Source: a virus
Lineage: Duplodnaviria > Heunggongvirae > Uroviricota > Caudoviricetes
Direction: 5' to 3' (one strand)
Length of the DNA: 8,430 nucleotides
IMG/VR virus record: IMGVR_UViG_2778260991_000010
Location: 1-8,430 of that record
A program made the translations under genes and the position numbers. Within the stretch, counting starts at the first letter, position 1; each line of letters starts with the position of its first letter. The notes beneath the pieces are model-generated. The model made no database searches. It saw only the letters and a list, made by a program, of their open reading frames with translations, and was not told the origin of the DNA. This document shows, piece after piece, positions 2,482-7,009 of this stretch.

Positions 2482-2610
2482 ATGGATTTCGACACAATCA
2501 TGGAAAAGGCTTACTAAGAATACTTCGAAGGCCTTGCCGAAGGCGAAGAAGCTCTCAGCTTCAGCGAATTTAAACAGGCGCTTTCCAGTTCGGCAAAATC
2601 TAACGACTGA
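2482..2610 (+). pseudogene. ydfB: ydfB-like ORF (42 codons) interrupted by an in-frame TAA at codon 12 (2515-2517)
   Basis: ATG at 2482, two nt after the ydfA stop. Reads MDFDTIMEKAY, then TAA, then the same frame continues EYFEGLAEGEEALSFSEFKQALSSSAKSND to TGA at 2608-2610. Total length and spacing to neighbours fit the 42-codon ydfB position. Confidence 0.45.
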
Positions 2611-2639
2611 TAAGCGAAACAGCACCGCGAGGAATCAGT

Positions 2640-2858
2640 ATGCAGAAACGAGAACCCGTCATCATCGCGCCAGACTATACCGATGATGAACTTTATGAGT
2701 GGATGCGCCAGAAAATTAATGCAGCGCAGGATCTGAAATGGGTCAATGAAGCCAGGGCTAAGCAGGCTGAAAATCTGTCCGCTCTGGAGCAGGATATCAC
2801 CAATCTGGAAAAAGCAGCGGCATTAAGCATTGCCAGAATGATTACATACCCGCGTTAA
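2640..2858 (+). CDS. ydfC: YdfC-like small protein (72 aa)
   Basis: 72-aa ORF with AGGA 7 nt upstream of the ATG. Size and position (third ORF of the operon, 30 nt after ydfB) match ydfC. Confidence 0.6.
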   Translation: MQKREPVIIAPDYTDDELYEWMRQKINAAQDLKWVNEARAKQAENLSALEQDITNLEKAAALSIARMITYPR

Positions 2859-2880
2859 TAGCTAACCAACTAGGCTAATA

Positions 2881-3288
2881 ATGGAATTTAAAGATTTACC
2901 AAAAGAAATCCAGACAATTGCTGCAACGACTCTCGGTGATAGTCTGGTGAAAATTGACCCGGCATACACCAAAAAAGAAACCATCGATAATATGGTTCGT
3001 AATGTGCGCAATGCTTTTTCTGGGCTATATAGTTCTGATAATCAAAAGCAGGAAAGCGATGTTAATGAACGGGTAATTTCTGTTTGCGTGAATGGCCACG
3101 CTCTTTCATCAATCAAAACAGAAACAGCGACAGTCTTCGATTGCCTTTGCATTGTACAGAGCCTTGTTGATACCCTGTTTCGTTCAGTGAATTTAGAAAA
3201 TGATGCAAATCTGCGAGGGCGCACAATAGCACATCCATATGCACATACTTTAGGCTCTGTGGATATCAAAGATCCCACAAATCTTTAA
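2881..3288 (+). CDS. Hypothetical protein (135 aa) in the AT-rich insert, co-oriented with the dicB operon
   Basis: ATG-to-TAA ORF of 135 codons in DNA of about 38-40% GC, where stop codons are frequent and long ORFs are unlikely by chance. Protein-like composition. Only a weak ribosome-binding site (AGG). Starts 22 nt after the ydfC stop. No family recognised. Confidence 0.5.
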   Translation: MEFKDLPKEIQTIAATTLGDSLVKIDPAYTKKETIDNMVRNVRNAFSGLYSSDNQKQESDVNERVISVCVNGHALSSIKTETATVFDCLCIVQSLVDTLFRSVNLENDANLRGRTIAHPYAHTLGSVDIKDPTNL

Positions 3289-3499
3289 TGAAATAGTTAA
3301 TGCGAATTGTACTTGCTCTTTCAGTTTCTTTCAGAATACGCGTTGAAACTGCTGGCGGTAATTTGGTATTCCATTTATTAAAATCATGCCCGGGAAAGTA
3401 CTCTTCGAAAATACTTTTAACTGCAGACTCGCCTATTGAAATGCTGCTTACCATGCGATTTTGATAAAGGCATTTAGCAATAAGAGTTGATTTTAACAT
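3266..3499 (-). CDS. Hypothetical protein (77 aa) in the AT-rich insert, antisense to the dicB operon
   Basis: ATG at 3497-3499 (minus) preceded by AGGAGG with a 4-nt spacer (reverse complement of 3501-3510). 77 codons, stop at 3266-3268. The 3' end overlaps the 3' end of the 135-aa ORF by 23 bp. No family recognised. Confidence 0.5.
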   Translation of the reverse strand: MLKSTLIAKCLYQNRMVSSISIGESAVKSIFEEYFPGHDFNKWNTKLPPAVSTRILKETERASTIRINYFIKDLWDL

Positions 3500-3503
3500 T
3501 CAC

Positions 3504-3829
3504 CCTCCTGAGGGTTGGTAATTAAGGAGTTATCCACGGGTGAGGTGGAGTGCGTGCGCCGGACACGGGTGAACATCCGGCACTGACAGTTTACTGAAAG
3601 GATATATCCCTGAAAAGTCAGGGCATAACACGAAAGTGCACGGCGAAGTCCTTCTCCCTTAGAGCCGTCGTTAAATTTAATTCGACCGTGCGCTTCCGGT
3701 TGTGGCAATCCGCGAAATGGCGCGGCGGTAAGTATGGCGGGGTTATTCTTTCCCCGTTGAGGACACCGGGTTGTCAGGTTGACCATACGCTTAAGTGACA
3801 ACCCCGCTGCAACGCCCTCTGTTATCAAT
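3504..3829 (+). other. GC-rich, hairpin-dense untranslated spacer upstream of DicF
   Basis: About 55-58% GC with no credible ORF. Stem-loops: GCCGGA/TCCGGC (3558-3581), CCCTGA-AAAG-TCAGGG (3608-3623), CCGCG/CGCGG (around 3700-3716), CGGGG/CCCCG (around 3738-3756), and a 9-bp stem GGGTTGTCA/TGACAACCC (3768-3776 / 3796-3804). Direct repeat CACGGGTGA at 3536-3544 and 3564-3572. Confidence 0.4.
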
Positions 3830-3882
3830 ATTCTGGTGACATTTGGCGGTATCAGTTTTACTCCGTGACTGCTCTGCCGCCC
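3830..3882 (+). ncRNA. dicF: DicF small regulatory RNA (about 53 nt)
   Basis: Sequence AUUCUGGUGACAUUUGGCGGUAUCAGUUUUACUCCGUGACUGCUCUGCCGCCC closely matches the DicF sequence as I recall it (two possible differences near the 5' end). It sits 186 nt upstream of the dicB start and ends in a stem plus T-run. Confidence 0.7.
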
Positions 3883-3888
3883 TTTTTT
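3845..3888 (+). terminator. Intrinsic terminator forming the DicF 3' end
   Basis: GGCGG (3845-3849) pairs with CCGCC (3877-3881), followed by TTTTTT at 3883-3888. Confidence 0.5.
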
Positions 3889-4067
3889 AAAAGTGAATTT
3901 TGTGATGCGGTGAATGCGGCTCAGCGCACGCGGAACAGTTAAATCGGTAAAGCGGTCATTTGCTGAGTAACGGGAATGCTCTGTATCCGGCGTTAATTGT
4001 TAACTGGTTAACGTCACCTGGAGGCACCAGGCACTGCATCACAAAATTCATTGTTGAGGACGCGATA

Positions 4068-4256
4068 ATGGAAAAGTTATCATACAATGCCAGTACGTCT
4101 GAACTTCGTTTCGAAATTGGCGTTATCACTGGAGACAAAACATTTATTGAAGACGCCATTAAGCAGAGAAAACTCGAGCAGGACCTGTTAAATGAAGTAT
4201 GCATTCCTTCAATGCTGGCTCGTCTGGACCTGCTGCAAAAAGGATATAAACAATGA
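4068..4256 (+). CDS. dicB: DicB-like cell-division inhibitor (62 aa)
   Basis: ATG at 4068 preceded by GAGGA. The 62-aa product contains FEIGV, EDAI and SMLARL motifs as in DicB as I recall it. Stop overlaps the ydfD start (ATGA). Confidence 0.75.
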   Translation: MEKLSYNASTSELRFEIGVITGDKTFIEDAIKQRKLEQDLLNEVCIPSMLARLDLLQKGYKQ

Positions 4257-4444
4257 AAACAACATTTGCACTCGTTCTGACAGTTTATCTTGTTTCCGGC
4301 GAATCTCTTGAGATGGTGACTGGCTTATACGGTTCAATGAAAGAATGCATGGCTGCAGCAGCAGAACAAAAAATTCCCGGTAACTGTTATCCGGTAGATA
4401 AAGCTACTCACACTAATAATAACGAAATACCGGCGGGACTTTAA
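4253..4444 (+). CDS. ydfD: YdfD-like small protein (63 aa) with hydrophobic N-terminal segment
   Basis: 63-aa ORF translationally coupled to dicB. N-terminus TTFALVLTVYLV is hydrophobic. Size and position match ydfD. Confidence 0.6.
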   Translation: MKTTFALVLTVYLVSGESLEMVTGLYGSMKECMAAAAEQKIPGNCYPVDKATHTNNNEIPAGL

Positions 4445-4537: not shown

Positions 4538-7009
4538 ATGAATAAAGTCTTTATTTGTGCAGCTATTCCAGACGAACGGGCAATAAAGGAAGAAGGTGCA
4601 GTCGCTGTGGCCACTGCCATTGAAGCCGGTGACGAGCGCCGCGCCCGAGCCAAATTTACCTGGCAATTCCTGGAGCAATATCCGGCTGCTCAGGACTGCG
4701 CTTATAAATTTCTTGTCTGTGAGGATAAACCCGGCATGCCCCGCCCTGCCATTGACTCCTGGGATACCGAATATATGCAGGAAAACCGCTGGGATGAGGA
4801 ATGCGCTTCCTTTGCTCCGGTCGAACCAGAATCCGATCCGATGAACGTCAATTTTGACAAGCTGTCCCCTGAAGTACAGAACGCGGTCCTGGTTAAGTTC
4901 GGTACATGTGAAAACATCACCGTTGATATGGTGATTAGCGCGCAGGAATTGTTGCAGGAAGACATAGCAACATTCGACGGACATATCGTTGAAGCGTTGA
5001 TGAAAATGCCAGAAGTTAACGCCATGTATCCGGAGCTTAAGCTGCATACCATCGGGTGGGTTAAGCATAAATGTAAGCCTGGTGCCAAATGGCCCGAAAT
5101 TCAGGCAGAGATGCGCATCTGGAAAAAACGTCGCGAAGGTGAACGCAAGGAAACCGGGAAATACACGTCTGTTGTTGATCTCGCCCGCGCCAGAGCCAAT
5201 CAACAGAACACTGAAAATTCAACAGGAAAAATCAACCCGGTCATTGCTGCCACTCATCGCGAATACAAGCAGACATGGAAAACACTGGATGACGAACTGG
5301 CCTACGCTCTCTGGCCTGGTGACATTGATGCCGGAAACATTGACGGCAGCATCCATCGCTGGGCAAAAAATGAAGTTATCGACAACGACCGCGAAGACTG
5401 GAAGCGTATCTCGGCATCAATGCGCAAACAGCCTGATGCCCTTCGCTACGACTGCCAGACTATTTTTGGCCTTGTCCGTGAACGTCCGATCGACATTCAC
5501 AAAGACCCTGTAGCACTGAACAAATACATTACTGAATACCTGACTACAAAGGGCGTGTTTGAAGATGAAGGAAGAAATCAGAGCGCAACTGATACTCTCT
5601 CGTCGCCAGTACCAGAAACTGATGCAGTGGAAACGGCAATTCCGGACAACGAAAAAACCGAATGCAAAGTGGAAGTCGAACCATCTGTAGAGCGTGAGGG
5701 GCCGTTCTACTTCCTCTTCACCGACAAGGATGGCGAAAAATACGGTCGCGCAAACAAACTTTCTGGTCTGAATAAGGCGCTGACTGCAGGGGCTACTGAA
5801 ATCACGAAAGAAGAATATTTTGCCCGCAAAAACGGTACATACTCAGGTTCACAACAAAATACTGGTGCATCTGACACGACCGCACAACCAGAGCCGGTAA
5901 AAGTTACCGCTGACGAAGTAAACAAAATTATGCAGGCAGCCAATATCAGCCAGCCTGACGCCGATAAGTTGCTTGCTGCCTCTCGCGGAGAATTTGTTGC
6001 AGGGATTAGCGACCCGAATGATCCGAAATGGGTGAAGGGGATTGAAACCCGCGACTCTGTAAACCAGAACCAGCAAGAATCGGAACAGAACGACCAGAAA
6101 ACGGAACAAAACAGCCCAAATGCGTTACAAAACGAGCCAGAAACGAAACAGGTTGAACCAGTAGCGCAACAGGAGCCGGAAAAAGCCTGCACCGCCTGCG
6201 GTCAGACCGGCGGCAGTAGCTGCCCTGATTGTGGTGCGGTGATGGGTGACGCAACATACCAGGAAATATTCGATGAAGAGCATCAGCCTGAAGTTCAGGA
6301 AAATGATCCGGAGGAAATGGAAGGCACTGCGCATCAGCACAAGGAGAACACTGGCGGCAATCAGCATCATGCCAGCGATAGTGAAACTGGCGAGGCATCA
6401 GATCCCTTAATTAAGGCGAACGGTCATCATAATCTCACATCCACCAGCAGAGCGGAGATTCATCTGATGATCGACCTTGAAACCATGGGAAAAAATCCCG
6501 ATGCCCCGATTATCTCAATAGGCGCAATATTTTTCGATCCACAAACCGGAGATATGGGACCGGAATTTAGCAAGACCATCGATCTGGATACTGCTGGCGG
6601 AGTCATTGATCGTGACGTCATTAAATGGTGGCTTAAGCAATCACGCGAAGCGCAATCTGCCATTATGACCGATGAAATCCCGTTAGATGATGCACTGTTA
6701 CAATTGCGGGAATTTATCGACGAAAACTCCGGTGAATTTTTTGTTCAGGTCTGGGGAAATGGAGCCAACTTCGACAACACGATTTTGCGCCGTTCATACG
6801 AACGGCAGGGGATCCCCTGCCCGTGGCGTTACTACAACGATCGCGATGTACGCACAATCGTTGAGCTGGGGAAAGCCATAGACTTCGATGCCAGAACGGC
6901 TATTCCATTCGAAGGTGAGCGCCATAATGCACTTGATGACGCCCGTTACCAGGCAAAATACGTTTCAGCAATCTGGCAAAAACTGATCCCGAATCAGGCT
7001 GATTTTTAA
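4538..7009 (+). CDS. Large prophage exonuclease (823 aa): N-terminal exodeoxyribonuclease VIII-like region, acidic Q/E/N-rich linker with a CxxC-x7-CxxC zinc ribbon, C-terminal DEDDh 3'-5' exonuclease domain
   Basis: ATG at 4538 preceded by GAGGT. C-terminal motifs IDLETMG, WGNGANFDNTIL and HNALDDARYQAKY are typical of DnaQ-like DEDDh exonucleases. Zinc ribbon CTACGQTGGSSCPDC is encoded at 6188-6232. Sits where recE/ydfE-like genes lie in Rac/Qin-type prophages. Internal minus-strand ORFs (4511..5203 and others) are antisense shadows. Confidence 0.7.
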   Translation: MNKVFICAAIPDERAIKEEGAVAVATAIEAGDERRARAKFTWQFLEQYPAAQDCAYKFLVCEDKPGMPRPAIDSWDTEYMQENRWDEECASFAPVEPESDPMNVNFDKLSPEVQNAVLVKFGTCENITVDMVISAQELLQEDIATFDGHIVEALMKMPEVNAMYPELKLHTIGWVKHKCKPGAKWPEIQAEMRIWKKRREGERKETGKYTSVVDLARARANQQNTENSTGKINPVIAATHREYKQTWKTLDDELAYALWPGDIDAGNIDGSIHRWAKNEVIDNDREDWKRISASMRKQPDALRYDCQTIFGLVRERPIDIHKDPVALNKYITEYLTTKGVFEDEGRNQSATDTLSSPVPETDAVETAIPDNEKTECKVEVEPSVEREGPFYFLFTDKDGEKYGRANKLSGLNKALTAGATEITKEEYFARKNGTYSGSQQNTGASDTTAQPEPVKVTADEVNKIMQAANISQPDADKLLAASRGEFVAGISDPNDPKWVKGIETRDSVNQNQQESEQNDQKTEQNSPNALQNEPETKQVEPVAQQEPEKACTACGQTGGSSCPDCGAVMGDATYQEIFDEEHQPEVQENDPEEMEGTAHQHKENTGGNQHHASDSETGEASDPLIKANGHHNLTSTSRAEIHLMIDLETMGKNPDAPIISIGAIFFDPQTGDMGPEFSKTIDLDTAGGVIDRDVIKWWLKQSREAQSAIMTDEIPLDDALLQLREFIDENSGEFFVQVWGNGANFDNTILRRSYERQGIPCPWRYYNDRDVRTIVELGKAIDFDARTAIPFEGERHNALDDARYQAKYVSAIWQKLIPNQADF

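What the first reader, a model, noticed from the sequence alone, without database searches (positions are those of the whole stretch)
3266..3499. 77-aa ORF transcribed against the dicB/dicF operon, with a consensus ribosome-binding site
This ORF runs opposite to everything else between the repressor and the integrase, and has the strongest ribosome-binding site in the window (AGGAGG). In lambdoid prophages, genes oriented against the early operon with their own signals are classically expressed in the lysogen (superinfection exclusion or lysogenic conversion). Its transcription would converge on, and be antisense to, the operon transcript that carries DicF and DicB, so it could also affect expression of those cell-division inhibitors. 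The start codon sits beside a short inverted repeat (ACCCTC/GAGGGT, 3502-3515) that could occlude the ribosome-binding site in the mRNA.
Basis: partly seen in the sequence, partly recalled or inferred. Interest (0 to 1): 0.65.

Follow-up and report, generated by a model that had tools for sequence, protein, structure and literature searches.

The report
Small counter-oriented prophage gene, sieB slot
The 77-codon reading frame is a real, conserved prophage gene of unknown function that sits tail-to-tail with a partner gene in the place where phage lambda keeps its superinfection-exclusion gene sieB, so it is probably a lysogen-side accessory gene and not a dedicated regulator of DicF/DicB.

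Summary
A 77-aa ATG ORF lies at 3266-3499 (-), the window's only AGGAGG sits 4 nt upstream, and the ACCCTC/GAGGGT repeat is at 3502-3515.

It is a genuine gene (PHROG 10348, annotated as a hypothetical protein). Same-length homologues occur across Enterobacterales, dN/dS is about 0.1-0.4, and the AlphaFold model scores pLDDT 96. It has no Pfam, PADLOC or PDB relative.

The gene always overlaps, tail-to-tail by 23 nt, a conserved partner domain: the C-terminal half of the 135-aa ORF at 2881-3288 (+). Together the two genes form a precise 634-bp, low-GC indel that K-12 Qin lacks.

In other genera the partner is the first early-left gene after the repressor. There the 77-aa gene follows a roughly 45-nt element that also precedes sieB in lambda and P22-like phages. 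That element carries an extended -10 motif in 31 of 31 variants.

The link to DicF/DicB is specific to E. coli. In this window the element is degenerate and no good promoter is visible. The ribosome-binding-site hairpin is no more stable than chance.

The best reading is a sieB-slot accessory gene paired with an early partner. Its biochemical function is unknown.

The parts
3266..3499 (-). Gene B: 77-aa protein of the PHROG 10348 family (the finding)
   Evidence: ORF. PHROG match E = 2.6e-46, covering 77 of 77 positions. Homologues. dN/dS. AlphaFold2 pLDDT 96.4, five helices. Annotated in RefSeq as a hypothetical protein, WP_096836093.1 / WP_000920491.1.
3504..3509 (-). Shine-Dalgarno sequence AGGAGG, 4 nt upstream of the ATG
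   Evidence: The same SD and repeat block precedes the unrelated alternative gene B' in L093, at 8-nt spacing.
3502..3515 (.). Inverted repeat ACCCTC-CT-GAGGGT over the SD. It straddles the right edge of the indel relative to K-12.
   Evidence: The hairpin is predicted but is no more stable than chance.
2881..3288 (+). Gene A: the 135-aa partner in the operon orientation. It has an N-terminal ~55-aa module (2881-~3045) and the conserved 'A-core' domain (~3058-3288).
   Evidence: (phrog_1363). The A-core is homologous to the 75-86-aa convergent partners in other genera. AlphaFold2 model pLDDT 68.
3266..3288 (.). 23-nt tail-to-tail overlap of A and B. It contains the palindromic arms AAAGAT/ATCTTT.
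   Evidence: The overlap is exactly 23 nt in nearly every locus with an intact B, with 26 nt and 51 nt in divergent pairs. The alternative A'/B' allele also overlaps by 23 nt.
2879..3512 (.). 634-bp cassette (A + B + B's SD) that is precisely absent from K-12 Qin. GC is lower than in the flanks.
   Evidence: In K-12 the flanks are contiguous: window 2601-2878 equals L092 2285-2562, and window 3513-4299 equals L092 2563-3341. GC is 0.37-0.41 against 0.44-0.53.
3526..3583 (-). Degenerate copy of the sieB-type upstream element (GTGCCGG..TCCGGC, CCAC..GTGG, TGGATAACT) in B's 5' flank
   Evidence: Alignments. It lacks the TGnTAnnnT motif present in 31 of 31 non-E. coli variants.
3588..3616 (-). Weak candidate sigma-70 promoter for B: TTTTCA (3616-3611), 17-nt spacer, TAAACT (3593-3588). 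Consensus match only.
   Evidence: The sequence is also conserved in K-12, which lacks B, so this conservation cannot be credited to B.
3513..3830 (+). Leader of DicF (equivalent to the K-12 ydfC-dicF spacer). On the other strand it is B's whole upstream region.
3831..3882 (+). DicF sRNA. The operon transcript reaches it only after crossing B in antisense.
   Evidence: Rfam RF00039, 77 bits, E = 3.8e-16
2818..2835 (-). Terminator-like site on B's strand inside ydfC. If it is used, B's mRNA would be antisense to all of A.
   Evidence: pattern match only; the count is not above chance

Best explanation
**Shown**
- B (3266-3499, -) is a genuine gene for a small, soluble, five-helix protein. It belongs to an uncharacterised family found on mobile elements.
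- In lambdoid prophages of Enterobacterales it forms a fixed convergent pair with the A-core gene. Their 3' ends overlap by 23 nt.
- The pair is a low-GC cassette inserted in the early-left (dicB) operon.
- In non-E. coli relatives A is the first gene transcribed from the repressor-controlled leftward promoter. B lies tail-to-tail with it, exactly as sieB lies against N in lambda. B there follows the same ~45-nt cis element that precedes sieB in lambda and P22-like phages. In the B-associated copies that element carries an extended -10 motif (TGnTAnnnT) about 40 nt before the ATG.
- The same element drives other unrelated counter-oriented genes, so this position is a variable-cargo slot.

**Inferred**
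- B is made from its own promoter while the early operon is repressed, that is, in the lysogen.
- When the operon is derepressed, RNA polymerase reads through A and then through B in antisense. This produces A protein and shuts B down by transcriptional collision or by duplex RNA, as with sieB and its sas RNA.
- A acts as B's early-expressed partner, either as an antagonist or as a repressor of B's promoter.
- B's job is most likely in phage-phage or phage-host conflict (exclusion or defence type).
- Any effect on DicF/DicB in E. coli is a side-effect of where the cassette sits.
For: - **Coding and family:**
- **Obligatory pairing:** every enterobacterial locus with an intact B has the convergent A-core partner. 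This holds for B at 35% identity in Citrobacter and for a ClpX-zinc-finger/A-core fusion in Yersinia. Among 5426 complete E. coli genomes, B is in 650, A-core in 656 and the alternative partner B' in 8.
- **Cassette:** precise indel relative to K-12 and low GC.
- **A is first after the repressor:** A follows the repressor's terminator and a promoter/operator region, with a conserved leader.
- **Lambda and P22-like parallel:** lambda N (35037-35438, -) abuts sieB (34482-35036, +; PF14163, E = 1e-29). The same layout is seen in a P22-like phage.
- **Shared upstream element:** the lambda element (L185:594-632) matches B's upstream element nearly base for base. It is at least 95% conserved in 122 phage records, including P22-like ones.
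- **Promoter motif:** TGnTAnnnT lies at -39 to -43 in 31 of 31 distinct non-E. coli variants.
- **Variable cargo:** the same element stands upstream of an ECs_2282-type zinc protein in E. coli, a 147-aa PHROG 5286 protein and a 49-aa ORF.
- **DNA-level signal:** the element shows no RNA-folding signal on either strand, which favours a DNA-level signal.
- **Operon structure:** the dicBF operon is one DicA-repressed transcript starting upstream of ydfA and is processed to DicF (PMC10448788).
- **Precedent:** sieB/sas/Esc is described in PMC12197685.
Against: - There is no expression data of any kind.
- In this window the upstream element is degenerate (TGGATAACT). No extended -10 lies within 330 nt and no strong promoter was found. 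B may therefore be poorly expressed in E. coli, or expressed in another way.
- In lambda and P22 the element itself lacks the TAT of the -10 (GGTGGTTCTC), so its role as a promoter is not established.
- B shares neither sequence nor fold with SieB and has no membrane segment.
- No known defence family matches A or B.
- Distant B homologues on plasmids and other elements are co-oriented with their neighbours and have no A partner.
Confidence: 0.5

Rival explanations
1. A and B form a toxin-antitoxin-like pair. One is a growth-inhibiting early protein and the other its antidote. For example, B made in the lysogen could neutralise leaky A, or A could neutralise B.
For: Two small proteins are strictly linked. 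A-core's weak fold hits are to ribbon-helix-helix antitoxins and regulators: MazE4, ParD, NikR and TraM. The A monomer is modelled poorly, as expected for an obligate complex. The slot carries swappable alleles, B versus B'.
Confidence: 0.15
2. B's main role is cis-regulatory. Its convergent transcription and antisense RNA throttle read-through of the dicB operon into dicF and dicB, and the protein is secondary.
For: The geometry fits. The operon transcript must cross B in antisense to reach DicF at 3831. B's 5' flank is the DicF leader. RNase III and RNase E already shape this transcript (PMC10448788).
Against: The protein sequence is under purifying selection while synonymous sites vary freely, including in the invariant N-terminus. 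The module is found in genera with no DicF within about 4-6 kb, and in phage Evi with Kil in place of DicB. K-12 regulates dicBF without it. No promoter is evident here.
Confidence: 0.1
3. B is not lysogen-specific. It is an early or constitutive accessory protein, such as an anti-defence or host-takeover factor, that simply happens to be counter-oriented. A is unrelated in function.
For: Distant family members sit co-directionally among small genes on plasmids and other mobile elements, with no partner. The family spans beta- and gammaproteobacteria. The fold is new, so there is no functional constraint from homology.
Against: It does not explain the strict A-B pairing and the conserved overlap across saturating divergence. 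It also does not explain the shared sieB-type upstream element.
Confidence: 0.15
4. The ORF is a chance reading frame or a decaying pseudogene.
For: Other ORFs of similar length in the window are spurious. No promoter was found.
Against: Homologues of conserved length and frame at 35-71% identity, dN/dS well below 1, pLDDT 96, and 163 family clusters.
Confidence: 0.01

Closest known systems
sieB / Esc / sas superinfection-exclusion module of phages P22 and lambda
   Same: - **Position:** both are counter-oriented genes embedded in the early-left operon, tail-to-tail with the first early-left gene.
- **Upstream element:** in relatives of this locus the ~45-nt element upstream of B is nearly identical to the one upstream of sieB.
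- **Precedent for regulation:** the known system is expressed from the prophage and is modulated by an RNA antisense to it that the incoming or induced phage makes (PMC12197685; the remaining detail is from my own knowledge of Ranade & Poteete 1993).
   Different: - B has no similarity to SieB (no PF14163 hit). It is 77 aa and soluble, whereas lambda SieB is about 184-190 aa and hydrophobic.
- B has no internal Esc-like start. Instead it has a separate, overlapping partner gene, A.
- In this E. coli window the upstream element is degenerate.
- No exclusion phenotype is known.
Morons (independently acquired accessory cassettes in lambdoid phages)
   Same: It is a discrete block lying between genes that are adjacent in a relative (K-12 Qin), with lower GC than its flanks. 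In relatives it has its own promoter-like element.
   Different: It holds two convergent overlapping genes rather than one gene flanked by its own promoter and terminator. No terminator is evident. In this window the cassette boundary falls 13 nt upstream of B's ATG, so no promoter travels with it.
PHROG 10348 / RefSeq hypothetical protein WP_000920491.1 (and the wider ~75-aa family)
   Same: Full-length member: E = 2.6e-46, 77 of 77 positions. It carries the family motif M-x-K-S-T-x-I-A-x-C-L ... F-P ... W-N ... F-I-x-D-L.
   Different: Nothing. It is this family, which has no described function, no Pfam model and no solved structure.
Convergent 3'-overlapping toxin/antisense pairs of prophages, such as type I txpA/RatA and bsrG/SR4 (from my own knowledge)
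   Same: Convergent transcription with overlapping 3' ends inside a prophage, which would create duplex RNA.
   Different: Here both partners are conserved proteins. B is not a short hydrophobic peptide, and no toxicity is known.
dicBF operon of Qin (DicA-repressed ydfABC-dicF-dicB-ydfD transcript)
   Same: The window is a Qin-type early-left operon with DicF, DicB and YdfD. The operon architecture is as in PMC10448788.
   Different: K-12 Qin has no A or B. Here 634 bp are inserted between ydfC and the DicF leader.

Membership tests
PHROG 10348 / 75-aa helical mobile-element protein family | Full-length profile match | tested here: met
   phrog_10348 E = 2.6e-46, residues 1-77 of a 77-position profile. 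A profile search finds 163 clusters, nearly all 74-80 aa.
PHROG 10348 / 75-aa helical mobile-element protein family | Conserved motif, including invariant W43 and near-invariant C10, L11, F31 and I71 | tested here: met
   Alignments A1 and A5
SieB superinfection-exclusion protein | Sequence membership in Pfam PF14163 | tested here: not met
   No Pfam hit for B at E <= 1. Lambda SieB scores 1e-29 in the same test.
SieB superinfection-exclusion protein | Inner-membrane protein of roughly 190 aa (from my own knowledge) | tested here: not met
   B is 77 aa and is modelled as a compact five-helix globule at pLDDT 96. It has no hydrophobic stretch long enough to span a membrane (read directly from the sequence).
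sieB-type slot (works like) | Counter-oriented and tail-to-tail with the first gene of the repressor-controlled leftward operon | tested here: met
   Met in non-E. coli relatives compared with lambda and a P22-like phage. In this window A is the fourth or fifth gene of the operon, after ydfABC.
sieB-type slot (works like) | Preceded by the conserved GTGCCTG..CCAC..CAGGC..GGTGG element | tested here: inconclusive
   The element is canonical upstream of B in 31 of 31 non-E. coli variants. In this window only a degenerate copy is present, at 3526-3583.
sieB-type slot (works like) | Expressed from the prophage; excludes superinfecting phage; escaped through antisense RNA | not testable with these tools
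   This needs transcript mapping and phage plating.
Type II toxin-antitoxin system | Co-directional two-gene operon with a recognisable toxin or antitoxin domain | tested here: not met
   The genes are convergent. There are no Pfam, NCBIfam or PADLOC matches for either protein.
Known anti-phage defence systems (PADLOC-DB 2.0) | Profile match to a catalogued defence protein | tested here: not met
   No family matches A or B at E <= 1. The library dates from 2023.
Moron | A discrete insertion between genes that are adjacent in a related phage, with atypical base composition | tested here: met
Moron | Own promoter and terminator inside the inserted block | tested here: not met
   The block ends 13 nt upstream of B's ATG. 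No promoter or terminator lies within 2879-3512 apart from chance-level matches.
Lambda N-type antiterminator (considered for partner A, because of its position) | Arginine-rich N-terminal motif in a largely disordered ~100-aa protein (from my own knowledge) | tested here: not met
   A-core begins MSKSGRLVEVRVNG... and has no arginine-rich motif. It is modelled as beta-hairpin plus helices.

The most novel reading that the evidence does not exclude
A and B together are a previously unrecognised two-protein prophage module, one of several alternative cargoes of the sieB slot. B is a new-fold effector made in the lysogen that blocks superinfecting phages or guards the host. A is the first product of the derepressed early operon and switches B off, by binding it or by repressing its palindrome-bearing promoter, while converging transcription silences B's mRNA. 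Because the E. coli version sits directly upstream of dicF in O157:H7 and other EHEC prophages, B's transcription would also set how much DicF and DicB leak from the prophage.
Probability: 0.25. Interest if true: 0.7.

Novelty: new variant of a known kind. Interest (0 to 1): 0.5.

Why it matters
- **Spread and clinical relevance.** The gene is carried by about 12% of complete E. coli genomes, including O157:H7, O111, O145 and O121 pathotypes. It lies next to dicF, an sRNA implicated in EHEC virulence and cell division.
- **A variable-cargo slot.** The sieB position of lambdoid phages appears to accept different cargo genes behind one conserved cis element. That gives a concrete way to mine prophages for new lysogen-expressed exclusion or defence genes.
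- **A testable pair.** The work identifies a conserved two-gene module with a new, confidently modelled fold.
- **A testable circuit.** The convergent, overlapping layout is a simple case of mutual exclusion between lysogenic and early-lytic expression.
- **If nothing comes of it.** The finding is still one more conserved hypothetical prophage gene, now correctly placed in its context.

Tried and rejected
**Searches that found nothing**
- Pfam, NCBIfam and PADLOC gave no match for B, A, B' or 73 family members.
- PDB sequence searches with profiles gave nothing below E = 0.07.
- Foldseek against BFVD found only an uncharacterised family member.
- Rfam found no family in 16 non-E. coli loci, so the module is independent of DicF.
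- Literature searches for the protein accession and for dicF/ydfC antisense transcription found nothing on this gene.

**Ideas rejected**
- Ribosome-binding-site-occluding hairpin: it is present, but z = -0.17. The analogous repeat in other genera would lie partly upstream of the predicted transcription start.
- RNA structure in the conserved upstream element: there is no folding signal on either strand and little consistent covariation.
- The 111-aa minus-strand ORF 3493-3828 ending just inside B: the frame stays open for 55-168 codons in E. coli variants and is fully open in K-12. However, it has no family hit and its amino-acid changes are non-conservative, so it is judged non-coding.
- Lipoprotein or signal peptide for B: Cys10 lies too close to the N-terminus, and the region is modelled as a packed helix.
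- A as an N-like antiterminator: rejected on sequence.

**Tool problems**
- The afdb50 library was unavailable.
It was redone with database proteins.

**Leads kept only as leads**
- P0218, a 1037-aa hit to the B profile, looks like low-complexity noise.
- A-core's resemblance to ribbon-helix-helix proteins is kept as a lead only.

Full report
**Locus.** The window is the early-left arm of a Qin-like lambdoid prophage of E. coli. It is 100% identical to strain BMH-17-0027. The gene order is:
- dicC-like cro (1422-1661, -)
- dicA-like repressor (1728-2135, +)
- ydfA, ydfB and ydfC (about 2325-2858, +)
- a 135-aa ORF that I call A (2881-3288, +)
- the 77-aa ORF of the finding, B (3266-3499, -)
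- DicF (3831-3882, +; Rfam 77 bits)
- dicB, ydfD, an 823-aa exonuclease, xis and int

**Observation.**
- The ATG ORF lies at 3266-3499 on the minus strand.
- AGGAGG is at 3504-3509, 4 nt before the ATG. It is the only copy in the window, but chance expects about 2.5.
- The repeat ACCCTC/GAGGGT is at 3502-3515. It folds over the Shine-Dalgarno sequence, but no better than shuffled sequence (z = -0.17).
- ORF length alone proves nothing, because equally long spurious ORFs lie beside it.

**Is it a gene? Yes.**
- It matches PHROG 10348 over its full length (E = 2.6e-46).
- It has 77-78-aa homologues at 52-71% identity in at least eight other enterobacterial genera, with an invariant N-terminus.
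- Between moderately diverged pairs dN/dS is 0.1-0.4. Between genera, synonymous sites are saturated while 55-65% of residues are kept.
- Synonymous codons vary even within the invariant N-terminal helix, so the constraint acts on the protein.
- AlphaFold2 gives a compact five-helix model at pLDDT 96.4.
- A full HMMER scan with the family profile finds 163 clusters at the 50% identity level, nearly all 74-80 aa. They include beta- and gammaproteobacterial members.
- The frame is disrupted in only two of about 100 loci, L091 and L011.

**The partner gene.**
- B's last 23 nt overlap the last 23 nt of A on the other strand.
- In Dickeya and Serratia prophages B has a 77-79-aa convergent neighbour with exactly the same 23-nt overlap. 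That neighbour is homologous to the C-terminal roughly 75 residues of A, the 'A-core'.
- Across the roughly 90 loci held at that point, every enterobacterial locus with an intact B has the partner. The overlap is 23 nt in nearly all of them and 26 nt in one.
- The pairing persists in a Citrobacter-type locus where B is only about 35% identical (51-nt overlap). It also persists where A-core is fused to a ClpX-type zinc finger (26-nt overlap).
- Among 5426 complete E. coli genomes, B occurs in 650 and A-core in 656.
- The difference is accounted for by 8 genomes with an alternative allele. In that allele A carries a 70-aa C-terminal extension, and B is replaced by an unrelated 63-aa gene, B' (PHROG 2605). 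B' is again convergent, again overlaps by 23 nt, and has the same SD/repeat block upstream.

**Relation to K-12 and to DicF.**
- K-12 Qin lacks both genes.
- Window 2601-2878 matches K-12 up to the end of ydfC, and window 3513-4299 continues at the very next K-12 base.
- A, B and B's Shine-Dalgarno sequence therefore form a precise 634-bp indel (2879-3512). Its GC content is 0.37-0.41, against 0.44-0.53 in the flanks.
- As a result, B's whole upstream region (3513-3830) is the ydfC-dicF spacer, which K-12 conserves without B.
- The dicBF operon is a single DicA-repressed transcript that starts upstream of ydfA and is processed by RNase E and RNase III to give DicF (PMC10448788). In this prophage that transcript must cross B in antisense.
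- The association is nevertheless specific to E. coli. Sixteen non-E. coli loci have no DicF or any other Rfam RNA, and phage Evi carries the pair next to kil.

**Position and cis element.**
- In the non-E. coli prophages A lies about 190 bp after the cI-type repressor gene. It sits behind that gene's terminator and a promoter/operator-like stretch, with a conserved leader. A is therefore the first early-left gene, and B lies tail-to-tail with it.
- Lambda has the same layout. N (35037-35438, -) abuts sieB (34482-35036, +; PF14163), and a P22-like phage has gene 24 tail-to-tail with sieB.
- Upstream of B, 31 distinct non-E. coli sequences share an element: GTGCCTG, N8, CCAC, NT, CAGGC, N3, GGTGG, TATCYT. 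All 31 carry TGnTAnnnT at -39 to -43 from the ATG, which is an extended -10 motif.
- The same element stands upstream of other counter-oriented genes: an ECs_2282-type zinc protein in E. coli relatives of this prophage, a 147-aa PHROG 5286 protein, and a 49-aa ORF in Serratia where B is absent.
- It is also nearly identical to the sequence upstream of lambda sieB. That sequence is at least 95% conserved in 122 lambda-like and P22-like phage records.
- It shows no RNA-folding signal on either strand, which favours a DNA-level promoter or operator.
- Caveats: the lambda and P22 copies read GGTGGTTCTC, without the TAT. This window has only a degenerate copy (3526-3583, TGGATAACT). No extended -10 lies within 330 nt. 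The only other candidate is a weak match, TTTTCA-17-TAAACT at 3616-3588.

**Interpretation.**
- B is a cargo gene of the sieB slot, tied to an early partner, A.
- By analogy with sieB/sas/Esc (PMC12197685), and from the geometry, I infer three things. B is made while the operon is repressed. Derepression yields both A and antisense transcription across B. A then counteracts B or represses its promoter.
- The protein's activity is unknown. Conflict with other phages is the most likely arena, given what else occupies the slot.
- The main rivals are a toxin-antitoxin-like pair, a purely cis-regulatory role on DicF/DicB, and a non-lysogenic accessory function. Each is less well supported, and the reasons are given with each rival.
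- For this E. coli window in particular, whether B is expressed at all is open.

**Verdict.** The gene is already annotated as a hypothetical protein. The new points are the conserved convergent pair, the sieB-slot homology through a shared cis element, and the alternative cargoes. Interest is moderate.

Noticed in passing
L185:594-632 (lambda 34393-34431); L002:2378-2420 (-); L181:4407-4430 (-) and 3480-3503 (-); L182:3835-3859 (-); upstream of B in L100-L137: A ~45-nt element (GTGCCTG..CCAC..CAGGC..GGTGG) precedes sieB in lambda and P22-like phages. In other prophages it precedes at least five unrelated counter-oriented genes. It is at least 95% conserved in 122 phage records. Its role (promoter, operator, or part of the sas/tL1 neighbourhood) is not known to me.
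   Followed up: partly
L093:4084-4275 (-) with L093:3501-4106 (+): This is an alternative allele of the slot, found in 8 E. coli genomes. An unrelated 63-aa gene (PHROG 2605) replaces B, and A gains a 70-aa C-terminal extension. The breakpoints fall at B's stop codon and just upstream of its start codon. The new pair again overlaps by 23 nt.
   Followed up: partly
window 3513-3830: This GC-rich stretch is homologous to the K-12 ydfC-dicF spacer and is nearly identical to K-12 over 3690-3830. One minus-strand frame stays open for 55-168 codons in E. coli variants and is open along the whole K-12 spacer. It has no family hit and its amino-acid changes are non-conservative. It is probably constrained as the DicF precursor rather than as coding sequence.
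   Followed up: partly
window 3896-4045 (+): A sub-threshold Rfam match to STnc100 lies between dicF and dicB (31.6 bits against a gathering score of 47; E = 6e-4).
   Followed up: no
window 2881-3045 (+); proteins P0077, P0078, P0084: The N-terminal ~55 residues of A (MEFKDLPKEIQ...AFSGLY) recur in E. coli and Salmonella proteins whose C-terminal domains are unrelated to A-core. It is either a shared N-terminal module or a mosaic recombination joint.
   Followed up: no
L184:3001-3471 (+); proteins P0125, P0171-P0173: In Yersinia and Citrobacter prophages the A-core domain is fused to an N-terminal ClpX-type C4 zinc finger (PF06689).
   Followed up: no
L180:2905-3000, L182:2900-3000, L006:6452-6550 (-), L004:6452-6550 (-): A conserved ~95-nt leader (CATCAACAGCGAACAGGCAGGACGCCCACGAAG...) lies upstream of A in prophages whose repressor and operator regions differ. 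It is not a recognisable nut site.
   Followed up: no
L096-L098:4001-4228; L095:4001-4237; L099:264-494; L010:3989-4228: Distant B-family members (about 35-45% identity) lie without an A partner and co-directionally with their neighbours. They occur on plasmid-like contigs (Rep3, ParA, Tn3), in an array of small genes, next to phage capsid genes, and in a Psychrosphaera chromosome.
   Followed up: partly
window ~2482-2610 (+): In the identical RefSeq record ydfB is flagged as a pseudogene with an internal stop.
   Followed up: no
window 4538-7009 (+): An intact 823-aa exonuclease (Exonuc_VIII plus an Rv2179c-like domain in relatives) occupies the position where K-12 has the ydfE pseudogene interrupted by IS2.
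   Followed up: no
L091:4001-4244; L011:4001-4227: B is frameshifted in one E. coli-type viral contig and in Photorhabdus temperata, while the partner A stays intact.
   Followed up: no
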